Assembly (NCBI GenBank): GCA_036403195.1
Contig: DASWRL010000047.1
Location: 1,462-65,461 of the forward strand
From: Gaiellaceae bacterium
GTDB lineage: Bacteria; Actinomycetota; Thermoleophilia; Gaiellales; Gaiellaceae
Direction of reading: 5' to 3'
DNA length: 64,000 nt
A model generated the notes under the pieces. It was not told where the DNA came from and made no database searches. It was given only the letters and a program-made list of their open reading frames with translations. A program made the position numbers and the translations under genes. Every line of letters starts with the position of its first letter. Within the stretch, counting starts at the first letter, position 1. Of the stretch, positions 37,873 through 62,939 are shown piece by piece.

Positions 37873-38424
37873 ATGACCGAGGCGCGGGCGATCCGGGCGA
37901 TCCAGACGGCGGGCATGCCGAACTGCGTCCCGGAGGAGCTCCTCTCGAGCCCGGCGTTCCTGCTCGCCCGCCTCGGCATGTCGGTCAAGGCGGAGGTGAT
38001 CGACGAGTTCGAAAAGGCCGGCCTGAGCCCGTACCACTACAGCGTGCTCGCGCTGCTCGACGAGGGCGAGCGCGAGACGCAGGCGACGATCGGGGACGTT
38101 CTCGGCTTCGACCGCACGACGCTCGTCGGCCTGCTGGACGCGCTCGAGCGCGACGGGCTGATCCACCGGCGGCGCGACGCCGACGACCGGCGCCGGCACG
38201 TGGTCGGGCTGACGCCGGCGGGGCGGCGGAAGCTCCGCAGCTACCGGACGCTCGCGGCGCGGATCGAGGACGAGATCTTTTCGCCGCTCAGCGCGGCCGA
38301 CCGCGCGGAGCTCCACCGCATCCTCCTCGGGCTCGCCGCCCACCGGGACGAACGGTTCGTGCGGCCGCCGGCGTTTGGCGATACTCCCGACCATGGGAGC
38401 GATCGACCCCCAGGGAACCCGTAA
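37873..38424 (+). CDS. MarR-family transcriptional regulator
   Basis: [68 protein letters not shown]. Confidence 0.88.
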
Positions 38425-38626
38425 GGACGGCCTCGATGCGTTCCTCGAGCAGAAGGTGAAGGAGGGGTACACCGTCGAGACCCGCACCGACACGCACGCG
38501 ATCGTCGCGCGCCGCCCGAGAGGGCTCAAGCGCTTCATGAGCGGAGCCGACCCCGGTCGCTTCGTGGTCGAGGTCGACGAAGATGGCATTGCCAAGATGC
38601 GGCCGGCCGAGCCGCGCCGTACGTGA
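38393..38626 (+). CDS. Small hypothetical protein (77 aa)
   Basis: [41 protein letters not shown]... It overlaps the MarR 3' end. The start is uncertain (38375 or 38393). Confidence 0.45.
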   Translation: MGAIDPQGTRKDGLDAFLEQKVKEGYTVETRTDTHAIVARRPRGLKRFMSGADPGRFVVEVDEDGIAKMRPAEPRRT

Positions 38627-56069: not shown

Positions 56070-57557
56070 ATGGCGACACACCGAGCCTCACCCGACCCCT
56101 CGACCGTCGATACGCGCCTCTCGACCGGCGTCGCCGGGCTCGACACGATCCTCTGCGGCGGGTTCCTTCCCGGCCGCACCTACATGGTGCGGGGCGAGCC
56201 TGGGGTCGGGAAGACCGCGCTCGGGCTCCACTTCCTGGCCGACGGCGCGGCGCGCGACGAGCGGGTCCTCTTCCTGACACAGGGCGCAACGCAGGAGGCC
56301 GTCCGCCAGGACGCCGCGTCGATCGGCGTGCCGATGGACGGCGTCGACTTCCTCGACTTCACGCCCGACCCGAACGAGTTCGAGGTCGCCGACACCTACG
56401 ACGTCTTCGAGCCAGGCGACGCCGAACGGACGCGGTACGTGTCGACCGTCGTGGCCGCGGTGCGCGAGACCCGCCCGACGCGGGTGTTCCTCGACGCGCT
56501 GACGCAGGGGCGGCACCTCGCCGAGGACGTGGTCGAGTTCCGGCGGCAAGCGCACGCGCTGTTGCGGTTCTTCGTCGGCGAAGGCGCGACCGTCGTGTTC
56601 GCGTCGGGGAGCTCCGACCGCCGGGCCGACGAGGACCTGCAGTTCATGAGCGACGGCGTCCTCCACCTCGAGTACTCGCCCCAAGGCGGCAGGATCGTCT
56701 CCGTCACGAAGCTGCGCGGGTCCCCCTTCCGCCTCGGACGCCACTCGCTGCGCATCACCGACCACGGCCTCGAGGTGTACCCGCGACTCGTTCCCGAGGC
56801 GCACGCGCGGCCGTACCGCGACGAGCAGATCGGAACCGGGATCGAGCGCCTCGACGTGCTGCTCGGCGGCGGCATCGAGCGCGGGTCGATCAGCCTCGTG
56901 ACCGGCCCGAGCGGCGTCGGGAAGACGACGCTTGCGACGCAGTTCGCGAAGGAGGCCGCGCTGCGCGGCGAGCGATCGGTGATCTACACCTTCGAGGAGG
57001 CGACGGCGACGTTCGTGCATCGGTCGGAGGCGATCGGCATGCCGATCTCGAAGATGGTCGCGGCGGGGTCGCTCTCGATCGTCGAGGCGGAGCCGCTGGA
57101 GTACACCGCGGACCAGTTCGCGATCGCGGTCCGCGAGGAGGTGGAGCAGCGGGAGGCGAAGCTGGTCGTCCTCGACAGCCTGTCGGGGTACCGGCTGGCG
57201 ATCCGCGGCGAGAACCTCGTCGAGCACGTCCACGCGCTGTGCCGCTACCTGCGGAACATGGGCGCGACCGTGATCGTGCTCTACGAGGTCACGTCGGTCA
57301 CCGGCGACTTCCGCGCGACCGAGGTCGGGCTCTCCTACCTCGCCGACAACATCGTGTTCCTCCGCTACGTGGAGATCGACAGCGAGCTTCGCCGGGTCAT
57401 CGGAGTCCTCAAGAAGCGGTCGACGGATTTCGAGAAGAAGCTGCGGGAGCTGACGATCACGGCGCACGGCATCGAGGTGGGCGAGCCGCTCACCGGGCTG
57501 CGCGGGATCCTGCGCGGCGTGGCGGACCGGGTCGACGGCTCGTCCCGCGGCGACTGA
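56070..57557 (+). CDS. KaiC-family double RecA-like ATPase
   Basis: Two KaiC-type domains: STGVAGLDTILCGGFLPGRTYMVRGEPGVGKTALG and GTGIERLDVLLGGGIERGSISLVTGPSGVGKTTLA. The C-terminus reads IGVLKKRSTDFEKKLRELTI. Confidence 0.9.
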   Translation: MATHRASPDPSTVDTRLSTGVAGLDTILCGGFLPGRTYMVRGEPGVGKTALGLHFLADGAARDERVLFLTQGATQEAVRQDAASIGVPMDGVDFLDFTPDPNEFEVADTYDVFEPGDAERTRYVSTVVAAVRETRPTRVFLDALTQGRHLAEDVVEFRRQAHALLRFFVGEGATVVFASGSSDRRADEDLQFMSDGVLHLEYSPQGGRIVSVTKLRGSPFRLGRHSLRITDHGLEVYPRLVPEAHARPYRDEQIGTGIERLDVLLGGGIERGSISLVTGPSGVGKTTLATQFAKEAALRGERSVIYTFEEATATFVHRSEAIGMPISKMVAAGSLSIVEAEPLEYTADQFAIAVREEVEQREAKLVVLDSLSGYRLAIRGENLVEHVHALCRYLRNMGATVIVLYEVTSVTGDFRATEVGLSYLADNIVFLRYVEIDSELRRVIGVLKKRSTDFEKKLRELTITAHGIEVGEPLTGLRGILRGVADRVDGSSRGD

Positions 57558-57565
57558 GGGGGCCG

Positions 57566-58621
57566 ATGCCGCGCGTCCTCCTCCTCGTCCACCACCGGGG
57601 CAACCGGCGACTGCTCCAGACGTGGGTCGAGCAGTCGCTGCGCGCGGACGCGATCTCCGCGCCGGAGACACCCGACGACGACGTCGACCTCGTCGTCGCA
57701 GACGCTGCGGCGTTCGCGCGCGACCGTGACCGGATCGAGCGGCTGCGCAGCCGCTCGCGACCCGCGTTCCTCCCGTGCCTCCTGGTCGCGACGCCCCGCG
57801 AGGCCGAGCGGCTCACGCTCGAGAGCTGGCGTCAGGCGGACGACGTCGTCGTCACGCCGATCCGGCCGGAGGAGCTGCGGATCCGGCTCGAGCGGCTGAT
57901 GTCGCAGCGCGCCGACAGCCTCGCGACCGAGGCCGAGCGCACCGAGCTGCGGCGCTCGAACGTCGACCTCGAGCGGTTCGCGTTCGTCGCCGCGCACGAG
58001 CTCGTCGCGCCGCTCACCGTCGTCCGCGGCGCCGTGCAGACGGTCGGCGCACGCTTCACGGGCGGCGACGAGCCGGCGAAGGCCGTCCTCGAGACCGCCG
58101 TCGAGGGCTGCGAGCGGATGCAGGTCCTGATCGAGAACATCCTCGATCTCTCCCGCGCCGGTCGCGGCGGCTCGCGGCAGGAGGTCGCGACGACGGCGCT
58201 CGTCGACGACGTGTGCGCGGAGCTCCGCGACCGCGCCGCCGCGAGCGGCACCGTCGTCACCTACGCCGACCTTCCGGTGGTGACGGCCGACCCGGCGCAG
58301 CTCCGGCTCGTCTTCCGGAACCTCATCGCGAACGCCGTCAAGTTCGCACGGCCCGGCGTGCCCGCCCGGGTCGAGATCACCGCCGCGCGCAGCGGCGCGC
58401 ACTGGCAGTTCTGCGTGGCCGACAACGGGATCGGGATCGAGGACGACGACCGCCAGAAGGTCTTCGACCTCTTCAACCGCGCGGGCCGGTCGAACCACGT
58501 CCCGGGCACGGGGATCGGCCTCGCGATCTGCCAGCGCATCGTGGAGCGCGCCGGCGGCCGGATCTGGATCGAGCCCGGTGACGAGCAGGGAACGGTCTTC
58601 TGCTTCACGGTCCCCGCGTAG
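57566..58621 (+). CDS. Histidine kinase with an N-terminal pseudo-receiver domain
   Basis: ATG lies 8 nt after the KaiC stop. The receiver-like fold lacks the DD pocket (LLLVHHRGN) and the conserved Lys (VVTPIRP). H-box FAFVAAHELVAPL. N/G boxes NLIANAVKF, DNGIGI and GTGIGLAICQ. Confidence 0.88.
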   Translation: MPRVLLLVHHRGNRRLLQTWVEQSLRADAISAPETPDDDVDLVVADAAAFARDRDRIERLRSRSRPAFLPCLLVATPREAERLTLESWRQADDVVVTPIRPEELRIRLERLMSQRADSLATEAERTELRRSNVDLERFAFVAAHELVAPLTVVRGAVQTVGARFTGGDEPAKAVLETAVEGCERMQVLIENILDLSRAGRGGSRQEVATTALVDDVCAELRDRAAASGTVVTYADLPVVTADPAQLRLVFRNLIANAVKFARPGVPARVEITAARSGAHWQFCVADNGIGIEDDDRQKVFDLFNRAGRSNHVPGTGIGLAICQRIVERAGGRIWIEPGDEQGTVFCFTVPA

Positions 58622-58943: not shown

Positions 58944-59384
58944 TCAGGCGTTGCAACCGTCGGGCTCGCCCGCGGCGACGTTCGCCTGCGACGGCTTGCC
59001 GATCCCGAGGTAGAGCGCGTAGAGCGTCACCCGCTTCGTGCCGTCGTTGCGGGCGAGGTGGACGTGGTTCGCCGGCTCGACGAACGACTGCCCCTTCCCC
59101 ACCTTGAACGGCTTGCAGCCCCCGACGGACGGGTCGAACACGGTGAGCGTCCCGCCCGTCACGACGACGGCGACCGGTGCGCCGTGTGTGTGCCAGCCGA
59201 AGTTGCCGCCCGGCTGGATCGTGATCGAGTCGAGCACCATCGACCCCGTCTGCGCGCGGATGGTCGTCGCCTGCATCGCGCCCACGGCCATCGCCTTCGC
59301 CATGATCGGCGGCTCCGACGCCGACGACGCCGTCGCGCCGGCCAGCGCACAGACGAAGAGCACTCCGAGCACCTTGAGCTTCAT
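58944..59384 (-). CDS. Secreted cupin-domain protein
   Basis: Signal peptide MKLKVLGVLFVCALAGATASSA. Cupin motif GWHTHGAPVAVVVTGG...VEPANHVHLARNDG. Confidence 0.7.
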   Translation of the reverse strand: MKLKVLGVLFVCALAGATASSASEPPIMAKAMAVGAMQATTIRAQTGSMVLDSITIQPGGNFGWHTHGAPVAVVVTGGTLTVFDPSVGGCKPFKVGKGQSFVEPANHVHLARNDGTKRVTLYALYLGIGKPSQANVAAGEPDGCNA

Positions 59385-59467: not shown

Positions 59468-60133
59468 TCAGTCGACGCCGACGATGAACACCGCGACGGC
59501 GACGTACTGGCACACGAGCGCGACGATCGTCAGAGCGTGGAAGAGCTCGTGGTAGCCGAAGACGCGCGGCAGCGGGTCCGGGCGGCGGCGCGCGTAGACG
59601 ACGGCGCCCGCCGTGTAGGCGAGCCCTCCCGCCCCGAGCAGCACGAGGGGGGCGATCCCCTCGTTGTGGGCGAGCTGCGGCATCGCGACGACGCCGGCCC
59701 AGCCGAGGGCGACGCCGACCACCGCCGACAGCCACTTCGGCGCCGCGACCCAGCACATCTTCGCGAGCGTCGCGACGATCGCCCCGCTCCAGACGACGGC
59801 GAGCACCGTCGAGCGCCAGGCGCCGTGGAGGCTGATCAGCGCGACCGGCGTGTACGTCCCGGCGATCAGGAGGAAAACGCCGGCGTGGTCGGCGCGGCGC
59901 ATCCAGAGCCGGCCGCGCGGCCCCCACGTGACGCGGTGGTAGAGCGTGCTCGTCCCGAGCATGAGGCTCGCCGTGACCGCGAACGTCGCAGCGGCGAACG
60001 CGTGGGCGGCGGGGGCAGACGCGACGAAGAGGATGCCGACGACGCACGACACGCCGAATGCGACGGCGTGCAGAACCCCGCGAAGCTTCGGGCGCTCGCT
60101 GACATCCCCGCCGATATCGGCCGTGTCGATCAT
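59468..60133 (-). CDS. Hemolysin-III/PAQR-family 7-TM channel protein
   Basis: KLRGVLHAVAF..., STLYHRV, DHAGVFLLIAGTYTP and GYHELFHALTI. ATG overlaps the upstream stop (4 nt). The track ORF to 60412 is over-extended. Confidence 0.88.
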   Translation of the reverse strand: MIDTADIGGDVSERPKLRGVLHAVAFGVSCVVGILFVASAPAAHAFAAATFAVTASLMLGTSTLYHRVTWGPRGRLWMRRADHAGVFLLIAGTYTPVALISLHGAWRSTVLAVVWSGAIVATLAKMCWVAAPKWLSAVVGVALGWAGVVAMPQLAHNEGIAPLVLLGAGGLAYTAGAVVYARRRPDPLPRVFGYHELFHALTIVALVCQYVAVAVFIVGVD

Positions 60134-60387
60134 TCGACGCCTGCGCCACCGGCTGCGAGCATCCGCGTGAACGTCAGCTGCGCGTACGGGAACCAGCGGA
60201 CGGGGTCCGTCGACGGCTCCGACACGACCTCGGTCCCGCCGGCGAGCATGCGCGCGGCCGCCGACGTCGTGCCGTGGTCGCCGGCCAGCAGCTCGTCCTG
60301 CTCGACGTCGCCCGCGGTGATCGTGCCGCCCCGCACAGCGGCGAGACGCGCGAGACGGACGACCGACGCCTCGAAGCTGAGCGTCAC
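60130..60387 (-). CDS. Hypothetical 85-aa protein (operon member)
   Basis: GTG start overlaps the upstream stop by 4 nt. GC3 is very high. MTLSFEASVVRLARLAAVRGGTITAGDVEQDELL... Confidence 0.55.
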   Translation of the reverse strand: MTLSFEASVVRLARLAAVRGGTITAGDVEQDELLAGDHGTTSAAARMLAGGTEVVSEPSTDPVRWFPYAQLTFTRMLAAGGAGVE

Positions 60388-60773
60388 CGCTCGAGCACCC
60401 TCCCCAGCTCACCGCCGACGAGGACGGTGATCGCGCACCGGCCCACGTGCACGACGAGCTGGCCGTCGCCGCGCCAGAACGCGCGCTCGAACTCGTCGGG
60501 GCGGACGACGAACCCGTTCTGCCGCGACCCGACGTGGAAGAACAGCGTCTCGACGGCGGCGTCGTCGGCGCGGAGGAGCACCTCCTGCAACCGGTCGTCG
60601 ATCTCCCCGCGCTCGAGGCGGCCGGAGAGGATCCCGAAGATGAACGGCGCGCCGCCCGCGCCGGAGAACAGGACCAGCACCGGGCGCCCGATCAGGCTCA
60701 GCAGCGCCTCGAGCGTCTGCTCGTACCCGAGCTGCGACGCCCCCTCGAGCCCGGAGCCCTCGAACCGGGTCAC
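60384..60773 (-). CDS. Hypothetical 129-aa protein (operon member)
   Basis: GTG start overlaps the upstream stop by 4 nt. Nearly every codon ends in G/C. No family recognised. Confidence 0.6.
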   Translation of the reverse strand: MTRFEGSGLEGASQLGYEQTLEALLSLIGRPVLVLFSGAGGAPFIFGILSGRLERGEIDDRLQEVLLRADDAAVETLFFHVGSRQNGFVVRPDEFERAFWRGDGQLVVHVGRCAITVLVGGELGRVLER

Positions 60774-60982
60774 CCCGCGTCTGCGCTCGCGCCTGCGTCC
60801 GTGTCCGCGGCCTCGTCGACCTCGACTTCGCCGTCGATGTCGACGTCACCGTCCGTCGGCTCGTCGCCGCGCCGGCGCGCCTCGGCGCGCGCATCCTTCT
60901 TCGCCTGCTTCATCTCCCGCTTCTCGCGCAGCGCCTGCTCGCGCGCGCGCTTGAGCACGGACTGTGGGCTTCTCCTGCCCAT
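60770..60982 (-). CDS. Hypothetical 70-aa protein with a basic N-terminal half and an acidic C-terminal half (operon member)
   Basis: MGRRSPQSVLKRAREQALREKREMKQAKKDARAEARRRGDEPTDGDVDIDGEVEVDEAADTD... The start overlaps the upstream stop by 1 nt. Confidence 0.5.
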   Translation of the reverse strand: MGRRSPQSVLKRAREQALREKREMKQAKKDARAEARRRGDEPTDGDVDIDGEVEVDEAADTDAGASADAG

Positions 60983-61215
60983 CAGCGCCGCCCCCGAGAG
61001 CGTGCGCGGCGCGCGGCGAAGAGCGGCACGACCGTGACGTTCACGGCCCGCGCCTCCTCGACCGCGTCGGGAGCGATTTCGAACTCGACTCGCATCCCGC
61101 GGCAGCGCTCCCCGAACTCCTCGCGCGCGGCGAGGCCTTCCTCGTCGACCCGCAGACGCTCCCCCTCGTCACTCCGGAGAAAGCCGTGCCGCTTGGCCGG
61201 ATTGAACCACAGCAT
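60982..61215 (-). CDS. Degenerate cold-shock-domain-like protein (77 aa) with an Arg-rich tail
   Basis: MLWFNPAKRHGFLRSDEGERLRVDEEG... parallels the CspA WFNxxKGYGFIxxxxGxDVFVH, but the RNP1/RNP2 aromatics are replaced. The track ORF to 61461 is over-extended. Confidence 0.55.
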   Translation of the reverse strand: MLWFNPAKRHGFLRSDEGERLRVDEEGLAAREEFGERCRGMRVEFEIAPDAVEEARAVNVTVVPLFAARRARSRGRR

Positions 61216-61288
61216 TGTTCCCTGCAAGGCCGCTCCTTTCAGGCGGCGCGGCCGCGCGCGAACCCTCGCGCGCGGCCGACGCGCACGG

Positions 61289-61492
61289 CTAGACGGCGAC
61301 GACGCTCTTCGCCTCGGGGCCTTTCGCTCCCTCGACCGCTTCGAACTGCACCTGGGCGCCCTCTGCGAGCGACTTGTAGCCCTCGGCGACGATCGACGAG
61401 TGGTGGACGAATACGTCCTTGCCACCCTCGGAAGGGGTGATGAACCCATACCCCTTCGCATCGTTGAACCATTTTACGGTTCCGGTTGCCAT
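61289..61492 (-). CDS. cspA: Cold-shock protein CspA family
   Basis: [72 protein letters not shown]. Confidence 0.95.
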
Positions 61493-61593
61493 ACAAACAC
61501 CTCCTCCACCACGAAAGAACGGGCAGGGGAAGCGCAACACCGCGCAACCAGTACTCGCTCGATTATCGGGGCGAACCGTAGCAGGTCGTGTGC

Positions 61594-62166
61594 TCAGCGG
61601 CGGCGCGCCGGGCCCGGCGGCGCCGCTGTGACCTGCTCGAGGATCCACGCCTCCGCGGCCGCCGGCTGGATGCCGCGGCACAGGGCGATCTCGGCAGTCA
61701 GGAGGGCGCGAGCACGGAGGTAGAGGTCGCGGTCGCTGGGCGCGGTCGTCCCGCCGCTCGCCGCCCGGCGCTGCTCGCGCCGGACGCCGTCGCGCACGAC
61801 CTCGGCGAGGTCCGCCGCCCGGCCCGACGTCAGCTTCTCTCGCGTCCGCCGGTGCTGGCGCGCCCACGGCTCGGCGGGCGCATCCTCGTCGGCGCGGAGC
61901 GCCCGCTCGACGTCGGCGAGCTCGGCGTCGTCGGCGGGGTGCCGGAGCGCCTCGACGGCGCGGGCCATCGGCAGGCGGACCGTCATCCCGCTCTCGAAGC
62001 TGAGCGTGATCGTCGGTCCGTCCGGGCCGTCGGGCCCGGCCGACGTGACCTGCCCGATCCCGTGGGACGCGTACACGACGACGTCGCCGACGGCGAAGTC
62101 GGGCTGTGCTCCGTCCGCTGCGGGCGCAGGCGTGTTCACGATCGTCCGGGGATTCCGCGCAGCCAC
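61594..62166 (-). CDS. carD: CarD/CdnL-family RNA polymerase-binding transcription regulator
   Basis: [17 protein letters not shown] (Tudor-like N-domain) and [22 protein letters not shown]...[18 protein letters not shown]. Confidence 0.85.
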
Positions 62167-62813: not shown

Positions 62814-62939
62814 CTACGCGTCCTCTCCCCGTTCCTCGCACTCGAGGCAGACCCAGTCGCCGTCGGCGTCGAACGCGCTGAGCACGGCGGGCACCATCGT
62901 CACGCCGCAGGTCGCGCAGATCGGCGGCTCGTCCTCCAC
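62814..62939 (-). CDS. 41-aa CxxC...CxxC zinc-ribbon small ORF
   Basis: Not in the track. GTG start: (M)[43 protein letters not shown] stop. GC3 is high. The RBS is weak. Confidence 0.35.

What the first reader, a model, noticed from the sequence alone, without database searches (positions are those of the whole stretch)
59468..61215. Five-gene, fully stop/start-overlapping operon: degenerate cold-shock-domain protein, three unknown small proteins and a hemolysin-III channel, directly downstream of cspA
**Gene chain.** On the minus strand, five ORFs are chained by 1-4 nt start/stop overlaps at 60982, 60770-60773, 60384-60387 and 60130-60133. That arrangement implies translational coupling and fixed stoichiometry.

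**Members, in order:**
- A CSD-like protein whose RNA-binding aromatics are replaced (KRHGFL in place of KGYGFI, LRV in place of VFVH).
- A 70-aa protein that is basic in its N-terminal half and acidic in its C-terminal half.
- A 129-aa protein and an 85-aa protein with no family I can recognise.
- A PAQR/hemolysin-III 7-TM protein.

**Why it matters.** All frames show extreme GC3 bias, so they are probably real genes. A canonical cspA sits 73 bp upstream on the same strand. I know of no described system that links a CSD paralog to a Hly-III channel through three small adaptors. It could be a membrane-associated stress or cold-responsive module.
Basis: partly seen in the sequence, partly recalled or inferred. 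Interest (0 to 1): 0.7.

Follow-up and report, generated by a model that had tools for sequence, protein, structure and literature searches.

The report
Cold-shock-domain paralog operon ending in TrhA
The five overlapping genes are real, but only the first two or three (a diverged cold-shock-domain protein, a small charged partner and a 129-aa protein) recur across soil Gaiellaceae, while the 85-aa protein and the hemolysin-III/TrhA membrane protein are optional add-ons, so this is a lineage-specific cold-shock gene cluster of unknown function and not a fixed five-part membrane machine.

Summary
**Observation: confirmed.** On the minus strand, five ORFs are chained by TGATG, GTGA, GTGA and ATGA junctions. 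GC3 is 0.86-0.98 and dN/dS against orthologs is 0.15-0.53. Canonical cspA lies upstream. The contig is a Gaiellaceae MAG.

**What the genes are.**
- Gene 1 is a true but diverged CSD. Its family profile matches local CSPs at hhalign probability 98%. The RNP1 and RNP2 motifs are altered and it has a conserved Arg-rich tail. Its start is probably TTG 61227.
- p70 has a conserved basic N-terminus and a variable acidic tail. It matches no known family.
- p129 and p85 also have no family. AF2 models suggest a PH-like beta-sandwich for p129 (weak) and a winged helix for p85.
- The last gene is a TrhA-type PAQR.

**Synteny.**
- Of 43 species-level loci that carry p129, p70 is adjacent in 32, CSP in 29, the CSD-like gene in 22, and an unrelated 80-aa gene I call "c4" in 23.
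- Hly-III is adjacent in only 4 of the 43, and p85 in 1.
- In 80 metagenome loci anchored on p70, a CSD-family gene precedes p70 in 66 of 75.
- Pseudogene remnants of Hly-III and c4 occur.
- A covarying 9-16 bp GC hairpin follows cspA in 18 of 19 loci.

**Verdict.** This is a Gaiellaceae/Thermoleophilia-restricted CSD-plus-partner operon with facultative 3' genes. The proposed link between the CSD paralog and the Hly-III channel is only weakly supported. Interest is moderate to low.

The parts
61289..61492 (-). Canonical cspA (67 aa), the upstream unit
   Evidence: Pfam CSD E 1.6e-28. The RNP1 motif KGYGFI and RNP2 motif VFVHH are intact. A CSP sits in this position in 29 of 43 p129 loci.
61249..61278 (-). 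GC-rich hairpin (13-bp stem, 4-nt loop) 10 nt after the cspA stop; candidate leaky terminator, attenuator or 3' stabiliser with no U-tract
   Evidence: An uninterrupted 9-16 bp stem lies at the same place in 18 of 19 CSP-to-CSD-like intergenic regions, and the stem sequences differ between loci. In the window, 0 of 200 dinucleotide shuffles reach the observed stem length.
60982..61227 (-).
   Evidence: Pfam CSD scores only 20.2 bits against a gathering threshold of 27. The family profile matches local CSPs at hhalign probability 98%, E 3e-13, and matches PDB CSPs at E 2e-8. Conserved features are W7, K12, G15, C42 and the RARxR tail. An AGGAG Shine-Dalgarno motif lies 5 nt before the TTG.
60770..60982 (-). 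p70: small protein with a conserved basic N-terminal ~36 aa and a variable acidic tail; near-obligate downstream partner of CSD-family genes
   Evidence: Charge split. Invariant residues are K11 R12 A13 R14 E15 ... K28 K29. No Pfam or PDB hit. A CSD-family gene precedes it in 66 of 75 metagenome loci. It is adjacent to p129 in 32 of 43 loci.
60384..60773 (-). p129: soluble protein of an unannotated, lineage-restricted family; predicted helix + 7 strands + C-terminal helix
   Evidence: 955 word-indexed homologs, almost all Gaiellaceae or soil. Only 52 representatives among 1.84 billion. AF2 gives pLDDT 79.7 and pTM 0.76. The best Foldseek hits are PH-like domains at E 0.015 and TM 0.40-0.48. 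No Pfam hit.
60130..60387 (-). p85: small acidic protein with a predicted winged-helix fold; facultative member
   Evidence: 47 homologs. AF2 gives pLDDT 81 with topology H-b-H-H-b-b. The top Foldseek hits are winged-helix domains (FOX, MarR, ScpA C-terminal), all weak at E >= 0.095. Present in 1 of 43 species loci. Not homologous to c4.
59468..60133 (-). TrhA-type PAQR / hemolysin-III family membrane protein (221 aa); facultative 3' member
   Evidence: Pfam HlyIII E 2.2e-43. NCBIfam NF011669 TrhA scores 140.9 bits against a cutoff of 80. Motifs S-x-LYH at residue 62, DH at 82 and HELFH at 195 are present, with multiple hydrophobic segments. Adjacent to p129 in 4 of 42 informative loci.
61594..62166 (-). 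CarD-family RNA-polymerase-binding protein, a recurrent neighbour of the cluster
   Evidence: Pfam CarD_C E 1.3e-13 and CarD_TRCF_RID E 1.3e-6. A CarD gene lies within 4 kb in 19 of 43 loci, either upstream of CSP or directly after c4 or p85.

Best explanation
**What it is.** This is a cold-shock-protein gene cluster restricted, as far as these searches show, to Gaiellaceae/Thermoleophilia.

**Layout.**
- cspA is its own highly expressed unit. It ends in a conserved GC hairpin.
- Transcripts that read through the hairpin, or start just after it, carry a translationally coupled chain.
- The conserved head of the chain is a diverged CSD paralog. Part of its canonical nucleic-acid-binding aromatic surface has been replaced by charged residues, and it has gained an Arg-rich tail.
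- Next comes p70, a basic helix with an acidic disordered tail. p70 is found almost only directly behind CSD-family genes.
- Behind this pair sits a variable set of small soluble proteins: p129, c4 and p85. At the 3' end there is either a CarD paralog, a TrhA-type PAQR, or nothing.
- This genome has the variant p129-p85-TrhA.

**Most likely function (inferred).** The CSD-like protein and p70 act together on RNA or on the transcription machinery, in the manner of a CSP accessory pair. The acidic tail of p70 may contact the basic surface and tail of the CSD paralog. p129 and p85 would be optional adaptor or regulatory subunits.

**Role of TrhA.** TrhA is co-transcribed here because it belongs to the same stress (probably low-temperature or membrane-energetics) expression programme. 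It is not co-transcribed because it forms a complex with the four small proteins.

**Shown versus inferred.** Shown: gene reality, coupling, homology assignments, the hierarchy of conservation and the conserved hairpin. Inferred: physical interaction, RNA-related function, cold responsiveness and what the hairpin does.
For: **Reality and coupling**
- Supported.

**CSD homology with altered RNP motifs**
- Supported.

**Hierarchy of conservation**
- Anchored on p129 in 43 GTDB species loci: p70 in 32, CSP in 29, CSD-like in 22, c4 in 23, CarD in 19, DEAD-box helicase in 13, adjacent Hly-III in 4, p85 in 1.
- Anchored on p70 in 80 metagenome loci: a CSD-family gene lies immediately upstream in 66 of 75 informative cases. 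Downstream is p129 in 30 of 64, c4 in 11 of 64, and something else in 22 of 64.
- p70-like genes also follow a second, canonical CSP in L007, L034 and L047.
- The fullest form, CarD-CSP-CSDl-p70-p129-c4-p85-HlyIII, is on contig L054.

**Piecemeal decay**
- Hly-III remnants occur in L017 and L124.
- c4 remnants occur in L051, L055 and L090.
- p129 is missing in L052 and L055.

**Hairpin**
- It covaries and holds a fixed position in 18 of 19 loci.

**Neighbourhood**
- DEAD-box helicase and fatty-acid desaturase are confirmed by Pfam. FabF and desaturase appear in L004, L005 and L055.
- E. coli trhA belongs to the FabR unsaturated-fatty-acid regulon and affects membrane energetics (PMC9017321).
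- From my own knowledge, E. coli CspA-family proteins act as transcription antiterminators at hairpins (Bae et al. 2000, PNAS).
Against: - There are no expression data, so cold induction and read-through are untested.
- All of the conservation lies within one family or order of uncultured Actinomycetota. Part of the synteny may therefore be inherited gene order and not selection for co-expression.
- The hairpin has no U-tract, and its MFE z-score in the window is only -1.74.
- The fold assignments for p129 and p85 rest on weak Foldseek scores.
- Hly-III does recur at the 3' end in several different gene orders: after p129 in L009, L034, L047 and L075; after c4 in L013 and L060; directly after p70 in L108. 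That hints at more than accident.
- No interaction between the CSD-like protein and p70 was computed.
Confidence: 0.55

Rival explanations
1. The five products form one membrane-associated complex of fixed stoichiometry, and the three small proteins tether the degenerate CSD to the TrhA/Hly-III channel.
For: - All four junctions overlap by 1-4 nt.
- Hly-III recurs next to p129, c4 or p70 in at least six different arrangements: L007, L009, L013, L034, L047/48, L054, L060, L075 and L108.
- Distant p129-like domains exist as membrane-anchored ~192-aa proteins.
- The best structural matches for p129 are PH-like domains.
Against: - Hly-III is adjacent in only 4 of 42 informative species loci, and p85 in 1 of 43.
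- The closest relatives of the window's p129 (81-84% identity; L003-L006) lack Hly-III at this position.
- Members decay independently.
- The small proteins have no TM segments or signal peptides in the models.
- 4-nt overlaps are the default junction in high-GC actinobacterial operons and do not by themselves imply a complex (own knowledge).
Confidence: 0.1
2. The arrangement has no functional meaning. The genes are unrelated small genes that sit together because of inherited gene order in a narrow clade. Apart from cspA and trhA, each acts on its own.
For: - All loci come from one family or order.
- Composition varies a great deal, and every member except the CSD-to-p70 pair can be absent.
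- c4 also occurs elsewhere in this genome, next to a MarR-like gene.
Against: - CSD-to-p70 adjacency holds in 66 of 75 loci, including paralogous CSP-to-p70 pairs.
- The -1/-4 overlaps are kept across loci whose p129 is only 65-84% identical, while flanking genes differ widely.
- The hairpin position is conserved while its sequence changes.
Confidence: 0.25
3. An anti-phage defence or toxin-antitoxin-like cassette that uses a CSD effector, as in retron Se72-type or other CSD-containing defence effectors, with Hly-III as a membrane-disrupting effector.
For: There are sub-threshold hits of the CSD-like protein to NCBIfam retron_eff_Se72 (E 0.084) and PADLOC CSD_V (E 0.032). The gene content is small, variable and lineage-specific.
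Against: - Those hits are no better than generic CSD similarity. Canonical cspA scores far higher on the same models.
- No reverse transcriptase, ncRNA, nuclease, integrase or other defence gene lies nearby.
- Base composition is the same as the flanks.
- The neighbours are housekeeping-type: CarD, MsrA, DEAD-box helicase.
- The Hly-III is a good TrhA match.
Confidence: 0.03

Closest known systems
Bacterial cold-shock proteins (CspA/CspB/CspE family, Pfam PF00313), including naturally RNP-degenerate paralogs such as E. coli CspF/CspH
   Same: The CSD-like gene aligns over the whole OB-fold domain with local CSPs (hhalign probability 98%) and with solved CSPs (E 2e-8). It keeps W7, K12, G15 and F16. 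It lies directly behind a canonical cspA.
   Different: - RNP1 is KRHGF(L/I). RNP2 is replaced by charged residues (LRVDE).
- There is a conserved Cys and a conserved Arg-rich tail of about 12 aa.
- The single sequence falls below the Pfam gathering score (20.2 against 27).
- It is always followed by p70.
TrhA (YqfA/YplQ), bacterial PAQR/hemolysin-III homologs
   Same: The last gene passes the NCBIfam TrhA equivalog cutoff (140.9 against 80) and matches Pfam HlyIII. It keeps the His/Asp motifs. E. coli trhA is co-regulated with unsaturated-fatty-acid genes (PMC9017321), and desaturase and FabF genes are recurrent neighbours here.
   Different: No described trhA is translationally coupled to a csp-type operon. 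The function in Actinomycetota is untested.
Eukaryotic Y-box proteins (YB-1): a CSD followed by a tail of alternating basic and acidic clusters (own knowledge; functional analogy only)
   Same: A CSD plus basic and acidic low-complexity segments (the Arg-rich tail of the CSD-like protein; the basic helix and acidic tail of p70) are encoded together.
   Different: Here the parts sit on two polypeptides. p70 shows no sequence similarity to Y-box tails. The analogy is untested.
CspA/CspE-dependent transcription antitermination at hairpins in E. coli cold-shock operons (own knowledge: Bae et al. 2000)
   Same: A conserved strong hairpin lies between a csp gene and downstream co-oriented genes.
   Different: There is no U-tract, and no evidence of termination or antitermination here. 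The hairpin could instead be an mRNA 3'-end stabiliser.

Membership tests
Cold-shock domain (PF00313) | Significant match to the CSD profile over the full ~65-residue OB domain | tested here: met
   The single sequence scores 20.2 bits, below the gathering score of 27. The 18-member family profile aligns with local CSPs at hhalign probability 98%, E 3e-13, over 65 columns, and hits PDB CSPs at E 1.9e-8.
Cold-shock domain (PF00313) | RNP1 motif K-G-[FY]-G-F-I with both aromatic residues | tested here: not met
   The window has K-R-H-G-F-L and the family consensus is K-R-H-G-F-I. The first aromatic is replaced by His.
Cold-shock domain (PF00313) | RNP2 motif V-F-V-H-[FH] | tested here: not met
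   The aligned residues are L-R-V-D-E. The family consensus is ERLRVD.
Cold-shock domain (PF00313) | Binding of single-stranded RNA or DNA | not testable with these tools
   Needs EMSA or ITC with the purified protein.
PAQR / hemolysin-III, TrhA equivalog (PF03006; NF011669) | Profile score above the curated cutoffs | tested here: met
   Pfam HlyIII scores 149 bits against 26.2. NF011669 scores 140.9 bits against 80. TIGR01065 scores 149.9 bits, below its cutoff of 172.2.
PAQR / hemolysin-III, TrhA equivalog (PF03006; NF011669) | Conserved metal-site residues (S..H in TM2, D in TM3, HxxxH in TM7) and seven TM segments | tested here: met
   STLYH is at residue 62, DHAG at 82 and HELFH at 195. 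A crude hydropathy scan finds hydrophobic segments spanning the protein, and their exact number was not resolved.
Winged-helix domain (assignment for p85) | H1-b1-H2-H3-b2-b3 topology with a significant structural match | tested here: inconclusive
   The AF2 model (pLDDT 81) has this topology. The top Foldseek hits are winged-helix domains, but the best E-value is 0.095 and TM is 0.47-0.57. There is no sequence-family hit.
PH-like / bacterial PH domain (assignment for p129) | Seven-stranded beta-sandwich capped by a C-terminal helix, with a significant structural or profile match | tested here: inconclusive
   The AF2 model (pLDDT 79.7) has 7 strands and a C-terminal helix. The best PDB hits are PH-like (CARM1 N-terminal domain E 0.015; ARAP PH), with TM of only 0.32-0.48. 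None of the 43 family members hits the bPH Pfam models.
CSD-containing defence effectors (retron Se72 effector; PADLOC CSD_V) | Score above the family cutoff and a neighbouring RT/ncRNA or defence partner | tested here: not met
   NF038236 scores 12.8 bits against a cutoff of 82. PADLOC CSD_V gives E 0.032. No RT or ncRNA lies in the region.

The most novel reading that the evidence does not exclude
The diverged CSD paralog and p70 would be the two halves of a previously undescribed bacterial "split Y-box-like" RNA or transcription factor. It would recruit interchangeable small adaptors (p129, c4, p85) and CarD. In some Gaiellaceae, including this one, it would be stoichiometrically co-produced with TrhA to couple RNA or transcription remodelling to membrane-energetics homeostasis during cold or other stress. 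Read-through of the conserved post-cspA hairpin, controlled by CspA itself, would gate the module.
Probability: 0.12. Interest if true: 0.6.

Novelty: new variant of a known kind. Interest (0 to 1): 0.35.

Why it matters
**What the finding defines.** It defines four uncharacterised protein families found so far only in Gaiellaceae/Thermoleophilia sequences: a CSD paralog with rewired RNP motifs, p70, p129 and p85. A fifth family, c4, turned up alongside them. All are organised around cspA and CarD in one of the most abundant but least cultured groups of soil Actinomycetota.

**The concrete lead.** The near-obligate pairing of a CSD gene with p70 is a testable lead on how cold-shock-domain proteins are modulated by partner proteins.

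**If the model is right.** If the hairpin and read-through idea holds, this would be a compact example of CSP-controlled operon expression outside Proteobacteria.

**What it does not show.** On present evidence it does not reveal a new membrane machine built around a PAQR.

Tried and rejected
**Family searches that returned nothing**
- Pfam, NCBIfam, PHROGs and PADLOC scans of p70, p129 and p85 found nothing. This includes every member of the p70 and p129 alignments.
- PDB sequence-profile searches for p129 and p70 gave only noise.

**Structure searches**
- Foldseek of p129 against BFVD returned only uncharacterised phage proteins at TM ~0.48. This is not informative.

**Ideas tested and dropped**
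- c4 and p85 as diverged homologs: rejected (hhalign probability 2.9%).
- A bPH_2-type relationship for p129, suggested by the TM-anchored paralogs: no Pfam support.
- A TM helix in p129 at residues 31-51, flagged by a hydropathy scan. I rejected it because AF2 models this stretch as two strands, the segment is Gly-rich, and it is not hydrophobic in distant homologs.
- The defence-system reading: rejected (see the rival explanations).

**RNA and regulatory scans**
- The Rfam cspA thermoregulator hit (41 bits against a gathering score of 78) spans the cspA coding region and is sub-threshold.
- The sigma-70 and terminator consensus scans found nothing useful in this high-GC DNA.
- RNAalifold on a MAFFT alignment of the intergenic regions misaligned the hairpins and recovered only 5 pairs. 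I replaced it with a per-sequence stem analysis with shuffles.

**Technical failures**
- The first locus search, using the distant-homolog alignment, failed for lack of a conserved stretch.
- My first GC3-based gene caller over-extended starts. I replaced it with a log-likelihood start chooser.
Full report
**1. The observation**

The window is high-GC DNA (about 70-75%) from a Gaiellaceae metagenome-assembled genome. NCBI names the identical p129 sequence [quoted passage not shown].

Six co-oriented genes lie on the minus strand:

| Gene | Coordinates |
|---|---|
| cspA | 61289-61492 |
| CSD-like | 60982-61215 (or 61227) |
| p70 | 60770-60982 |
| p129 | 60384-60773 |
| p85 | 60130-60387 |
| Hly-III | 59468-60133 |

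- GC3 is 0.86-0.98 and GC2 is 0.44-0.57 in the proposed frames. A sliding frame plot switches phase at each junction.
- Independent gene callers made the same calls on two public contigs that carry the identical sequence.
- Codon-aligned comparison with orthologs gives dN/dS of 0.15-0.53 for all five genes.
These are real genes, not chance ORFs.
- One correction applies. An AGGAG lies 5 nt before an in-frame TTG at 61227, and the N-terminus MxGTM(L/I)WFN is conserved in orthologs. The CSD-like protein is therefore most likely 81 aa.

**2. What each protein is**

*CSD-like protein*
- Alone, it gives only a sub-threshold Pfam CSD hit (20.2 bits against a gathering score of 27).
- An 18-member family profile aligns over 65 columns with the local canonical CSPs (hhalign probability 98%, E 3e-13). 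It also finds solved CSP structures at E 2e-8.
- The family keeps W7, K12, G15 and F16. It has KRHGF(I/L) in place of KGYGFI and LRVDE in place of VFVHH.
- It also has a nearly invariant Cys42 and a conserved C-terminal ARRARxRGRR tail.

*p70*
- It has a strongly conserved basic N-terminus, MGRRSPQSVLKRAREQALREKRELKQAKKDARAAERR.
- In the window copy, the N-terminal 39 residues carry 15 K+R against 5 D+E. The variable tail of 31 residues carries 0 K+R against 13 D+E.
- It matches no Pfam family or PDB sequence.

*p129*
- It belongs to a narrow family. There are 955 word-indexed homologs, nearly all at least 78% identical among the 120 listed.
- An exhaustive HMMER scan of 1.84 billion cluster representatives found only 52 representatives at E <= 1e-3.
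- Its AF2 model (pLDDT 79.7, pTM 0.76) is a helix, seven strands and a C-terminal helix.
- The best PDB matches are PH-like domains, but they are weak (E 0.015, TM 0.40-0.48).

*p85*
- It has 47 homologs.
- Its AF2 model (pLDDT 81) has the H-b-H-H-b-b winged-helix topology.
- The top Foldseek hits are winged-helix domains, again with weak scores.

*Hly-III*
- It passes the NCBIfam TrhA equivalog cutoff (140.9 against 80) and matches Pfam HlyIII (E 2e-43).
- It retains the SxLYH, DH and HxxxH motifs.

**3. Is the five-gene unit conserved?**

*Survey anchored on p129.* A scan of one genome per GTDB species returned 43 loci. All are Gaiellaceae/Gaiellales/Thermoleophilia MAGs or MAGs labelled only at class or phylum level (Actinomycetes, Actinomycetota). 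I built HMMs for each family and searched six-frame translations of the loci.

| Feature near p129 | Loci (of 43) |
|---|---|
| p70 immediately upstream | 32 |
| Canonical CSP upstream | 29 |
| CSD-like gene | 22 |
| c4 (an 80-aa gene) immediately downstream | 23 |
| CarD within 4 kb | 19 |
| DEAD-box helicase within 4 kb | 13 |
| Hly-III adjacent | 4 (L007, L009, L013, L034) |
| p85 | 1 (a fragment, in L007) |

- c4 is not homologous to p85 (hhalign probability 3%).
- The exact order CSDl-p70-p129-p85-Hly occurs only in contigs that carry the window's own sequence.

*Contexts of other p85 homologs*:
- c4-p85-CarD in L050.
- p129-p85 with nothing else of the cluster in L053.
- CSP-p70-p85 without p129 in L052.
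- The fullest form, CarD-CSP-CSDl-p70-p129-c4-p85-HlyIII, in L054.

*Survey anchored on p70.* This covered 80 soil-metagenome loci.
- A CSD-family gene lies within 200 nt upstream in 66 of 75 informative cases (CSD-like 50, canonical CSP 16).
- Downstream is p129 in 30 of 64, c4 in 11 of 64, and something unrelated in 22 of 64.
- p70-like genes also follow a second canonical CSP in several genomes (L007, L034, L047).

*Gene decay.* Decay is visible in several places:
- Hly-III fragments in L017 and L124.
- Frameshifted c4 pieces in L051, L055 and L090.

*Resulting hierarchy.* The order of conservation is CSD gene, then p70, then p129, then c4, then (p85), then (CarD, TrhA or nothing). Where genes are present, the -1/-4 overlaps are kept.

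**4. The cspA-operon boundary**

- The cspA/CSD-like spacer contains a 13-bp perfect GC stem with a 4-nt loop (61249-61278), 10 nt after the cspA stop.
- In 18 of 19 other loci, an uninterrupted 9-16 bp stem with a 3-5 nt loop sits 5-13 nt after the CSP stop and 21-31 nt before the CSD-like start.
- The stem sequences differ between loci (for example CGAGAGC/GCTCTCG, GCGGGC/GCCCGC, GGAGGCC/GGCCTCC). For most loci, few or no dinucleotide shuffles reach the observed stem length.
- This is a conserved structural element. No U-tract follows it, so it could be a leaky terminator or attenuator, or an mRNA 3'-end stabiliser. That question stays open.
- CspA-family proteins are known antiterminators in E. 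coli (own knowledge). CspA-dependent read-through is therefore an attractive but untested idea.

**5. Interpretation**

- The conserved functional unit is a CSD paralog and its partner p70, usually with p129. It is embedded in a neighbourhood rich in RNA and transcription genes (cspA, CarD, DEAD-box helicase).
- The neighbourhood sometimes includes lipid genes: desaturase and FabF.
- TrhA is a facultative 3' passenger. In E. coli, trhA belongs to the unsaturated-fatty-acid regulon and affects membrane energetics (PMC9017321). Co-expression with a cold or stress cluster is therefore sensible without any physical link.
- It is not strictly excluded, because Hly-III turns up at the 3' end in several different gene orders (L009, L013, L034, L047, L054, L060, L075, L108).
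- I put about 0.55 on the "CSD-partner cluster with facultative TrhA" reading. I put 0.25 on inherited gene order without functional coupling, 0.10 on the five-protein membrane complex, and 0.03 on a defence cassette.

**6. Novelty and score**

- p70, p129, p85 and c4 match nothing in any family library searched. No paper in the searched library links Hly-III to csp operons or discusses such a cluster in Gaiellales.
- This is a new lineage-specific variant of a familiar theme: csp loci with paralogs and small hypothetical genes.
- It gives a concrete lead, the CSD-to-p70 pairing and the covarying hairpin. It does not overturn expectations or open a long-standing question.
- Interest: 0.35.

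Noticed in passing
window 38375-38626 (+): A paralog of the c4 family (83 aa, HMM 64 bits, E 5.8e-19) sits 22 kb from the operon, just after a MarR-like reading frame. In most relatives c4 follows p129, but it is missing from this operon. This genome therefore keeps a c4 copy elsewhere.
   Followed up: partly
L046 5001-5585 and L049 5001-5579: Distant p129-like domains (about 30-35% identity) occur as ~192-aa proteins with an N-terminal hydrophobic extension. They lie in clusters with an AAA_10 (VirB4/TraC-like) ATPase and a ~750-aa protein with no Pfam hit. L046 also has a ParA-like ATPase. This looks like a conjugation or secretion-type context.
   Followed up: partly
L017 4490-4591; L124 1183-1404; L051 3835-4023; L055 3339-3481; L090 3212-3354: There are pseudogene remnants of Hly-III (L017, L124) and frameshifted pieces of c4 (L051, L055, L090) at the 3' end of the cluster. 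They show ongoing piecemeal loss of members.
   Followed up: partly
window 56070-57557 (+) and 57566-58621 (+): A KaiC-like double-domain ATPase (495 aa) is followed 8 nt later by a HisKA/HATPase histidine kinase (351 aa). They converge on the cluster. The same pair is next to the locus in L009 and other relatives.
   Followed up: no
window 58944-59384 (-): A 146-aa cupin with an N-terminal signal-peptide-like segment lies 83 nt downstream of trhA on the same strand. It has its own AGGAGG motif and could belong to the same transcript.
   Followed up: no
window 62814-62939 (-): A 41-aa ORF with two CxxC pairs (zinc-ribbon-like) and GC3 of 0.95 lies between ArsB and MsrA. It has no Pfam hit.
   Followed up: no
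window 61246-61566 (-): There is a sub-threshold Rfam match to the cspA thermoregulator (41 bits against a gathering score of 78). It spans the cspA 5' leader, the coding region and the downstream hairpin, and is probably driven by the coding sequence.
   Followed up: no
L004, L005, L044, L050, L055 (flanks of the cluster): Fatty-acid desaturase genes, in several loci paired with FabF-type ketoacyl synthase genes, lie next to the csp cluster on the opposite strand. DEAD-box helicase genes lie within 4 kb in 13 of 43 loci. Together they give the region a cold-adaptation flavour.
   Followed up: partly
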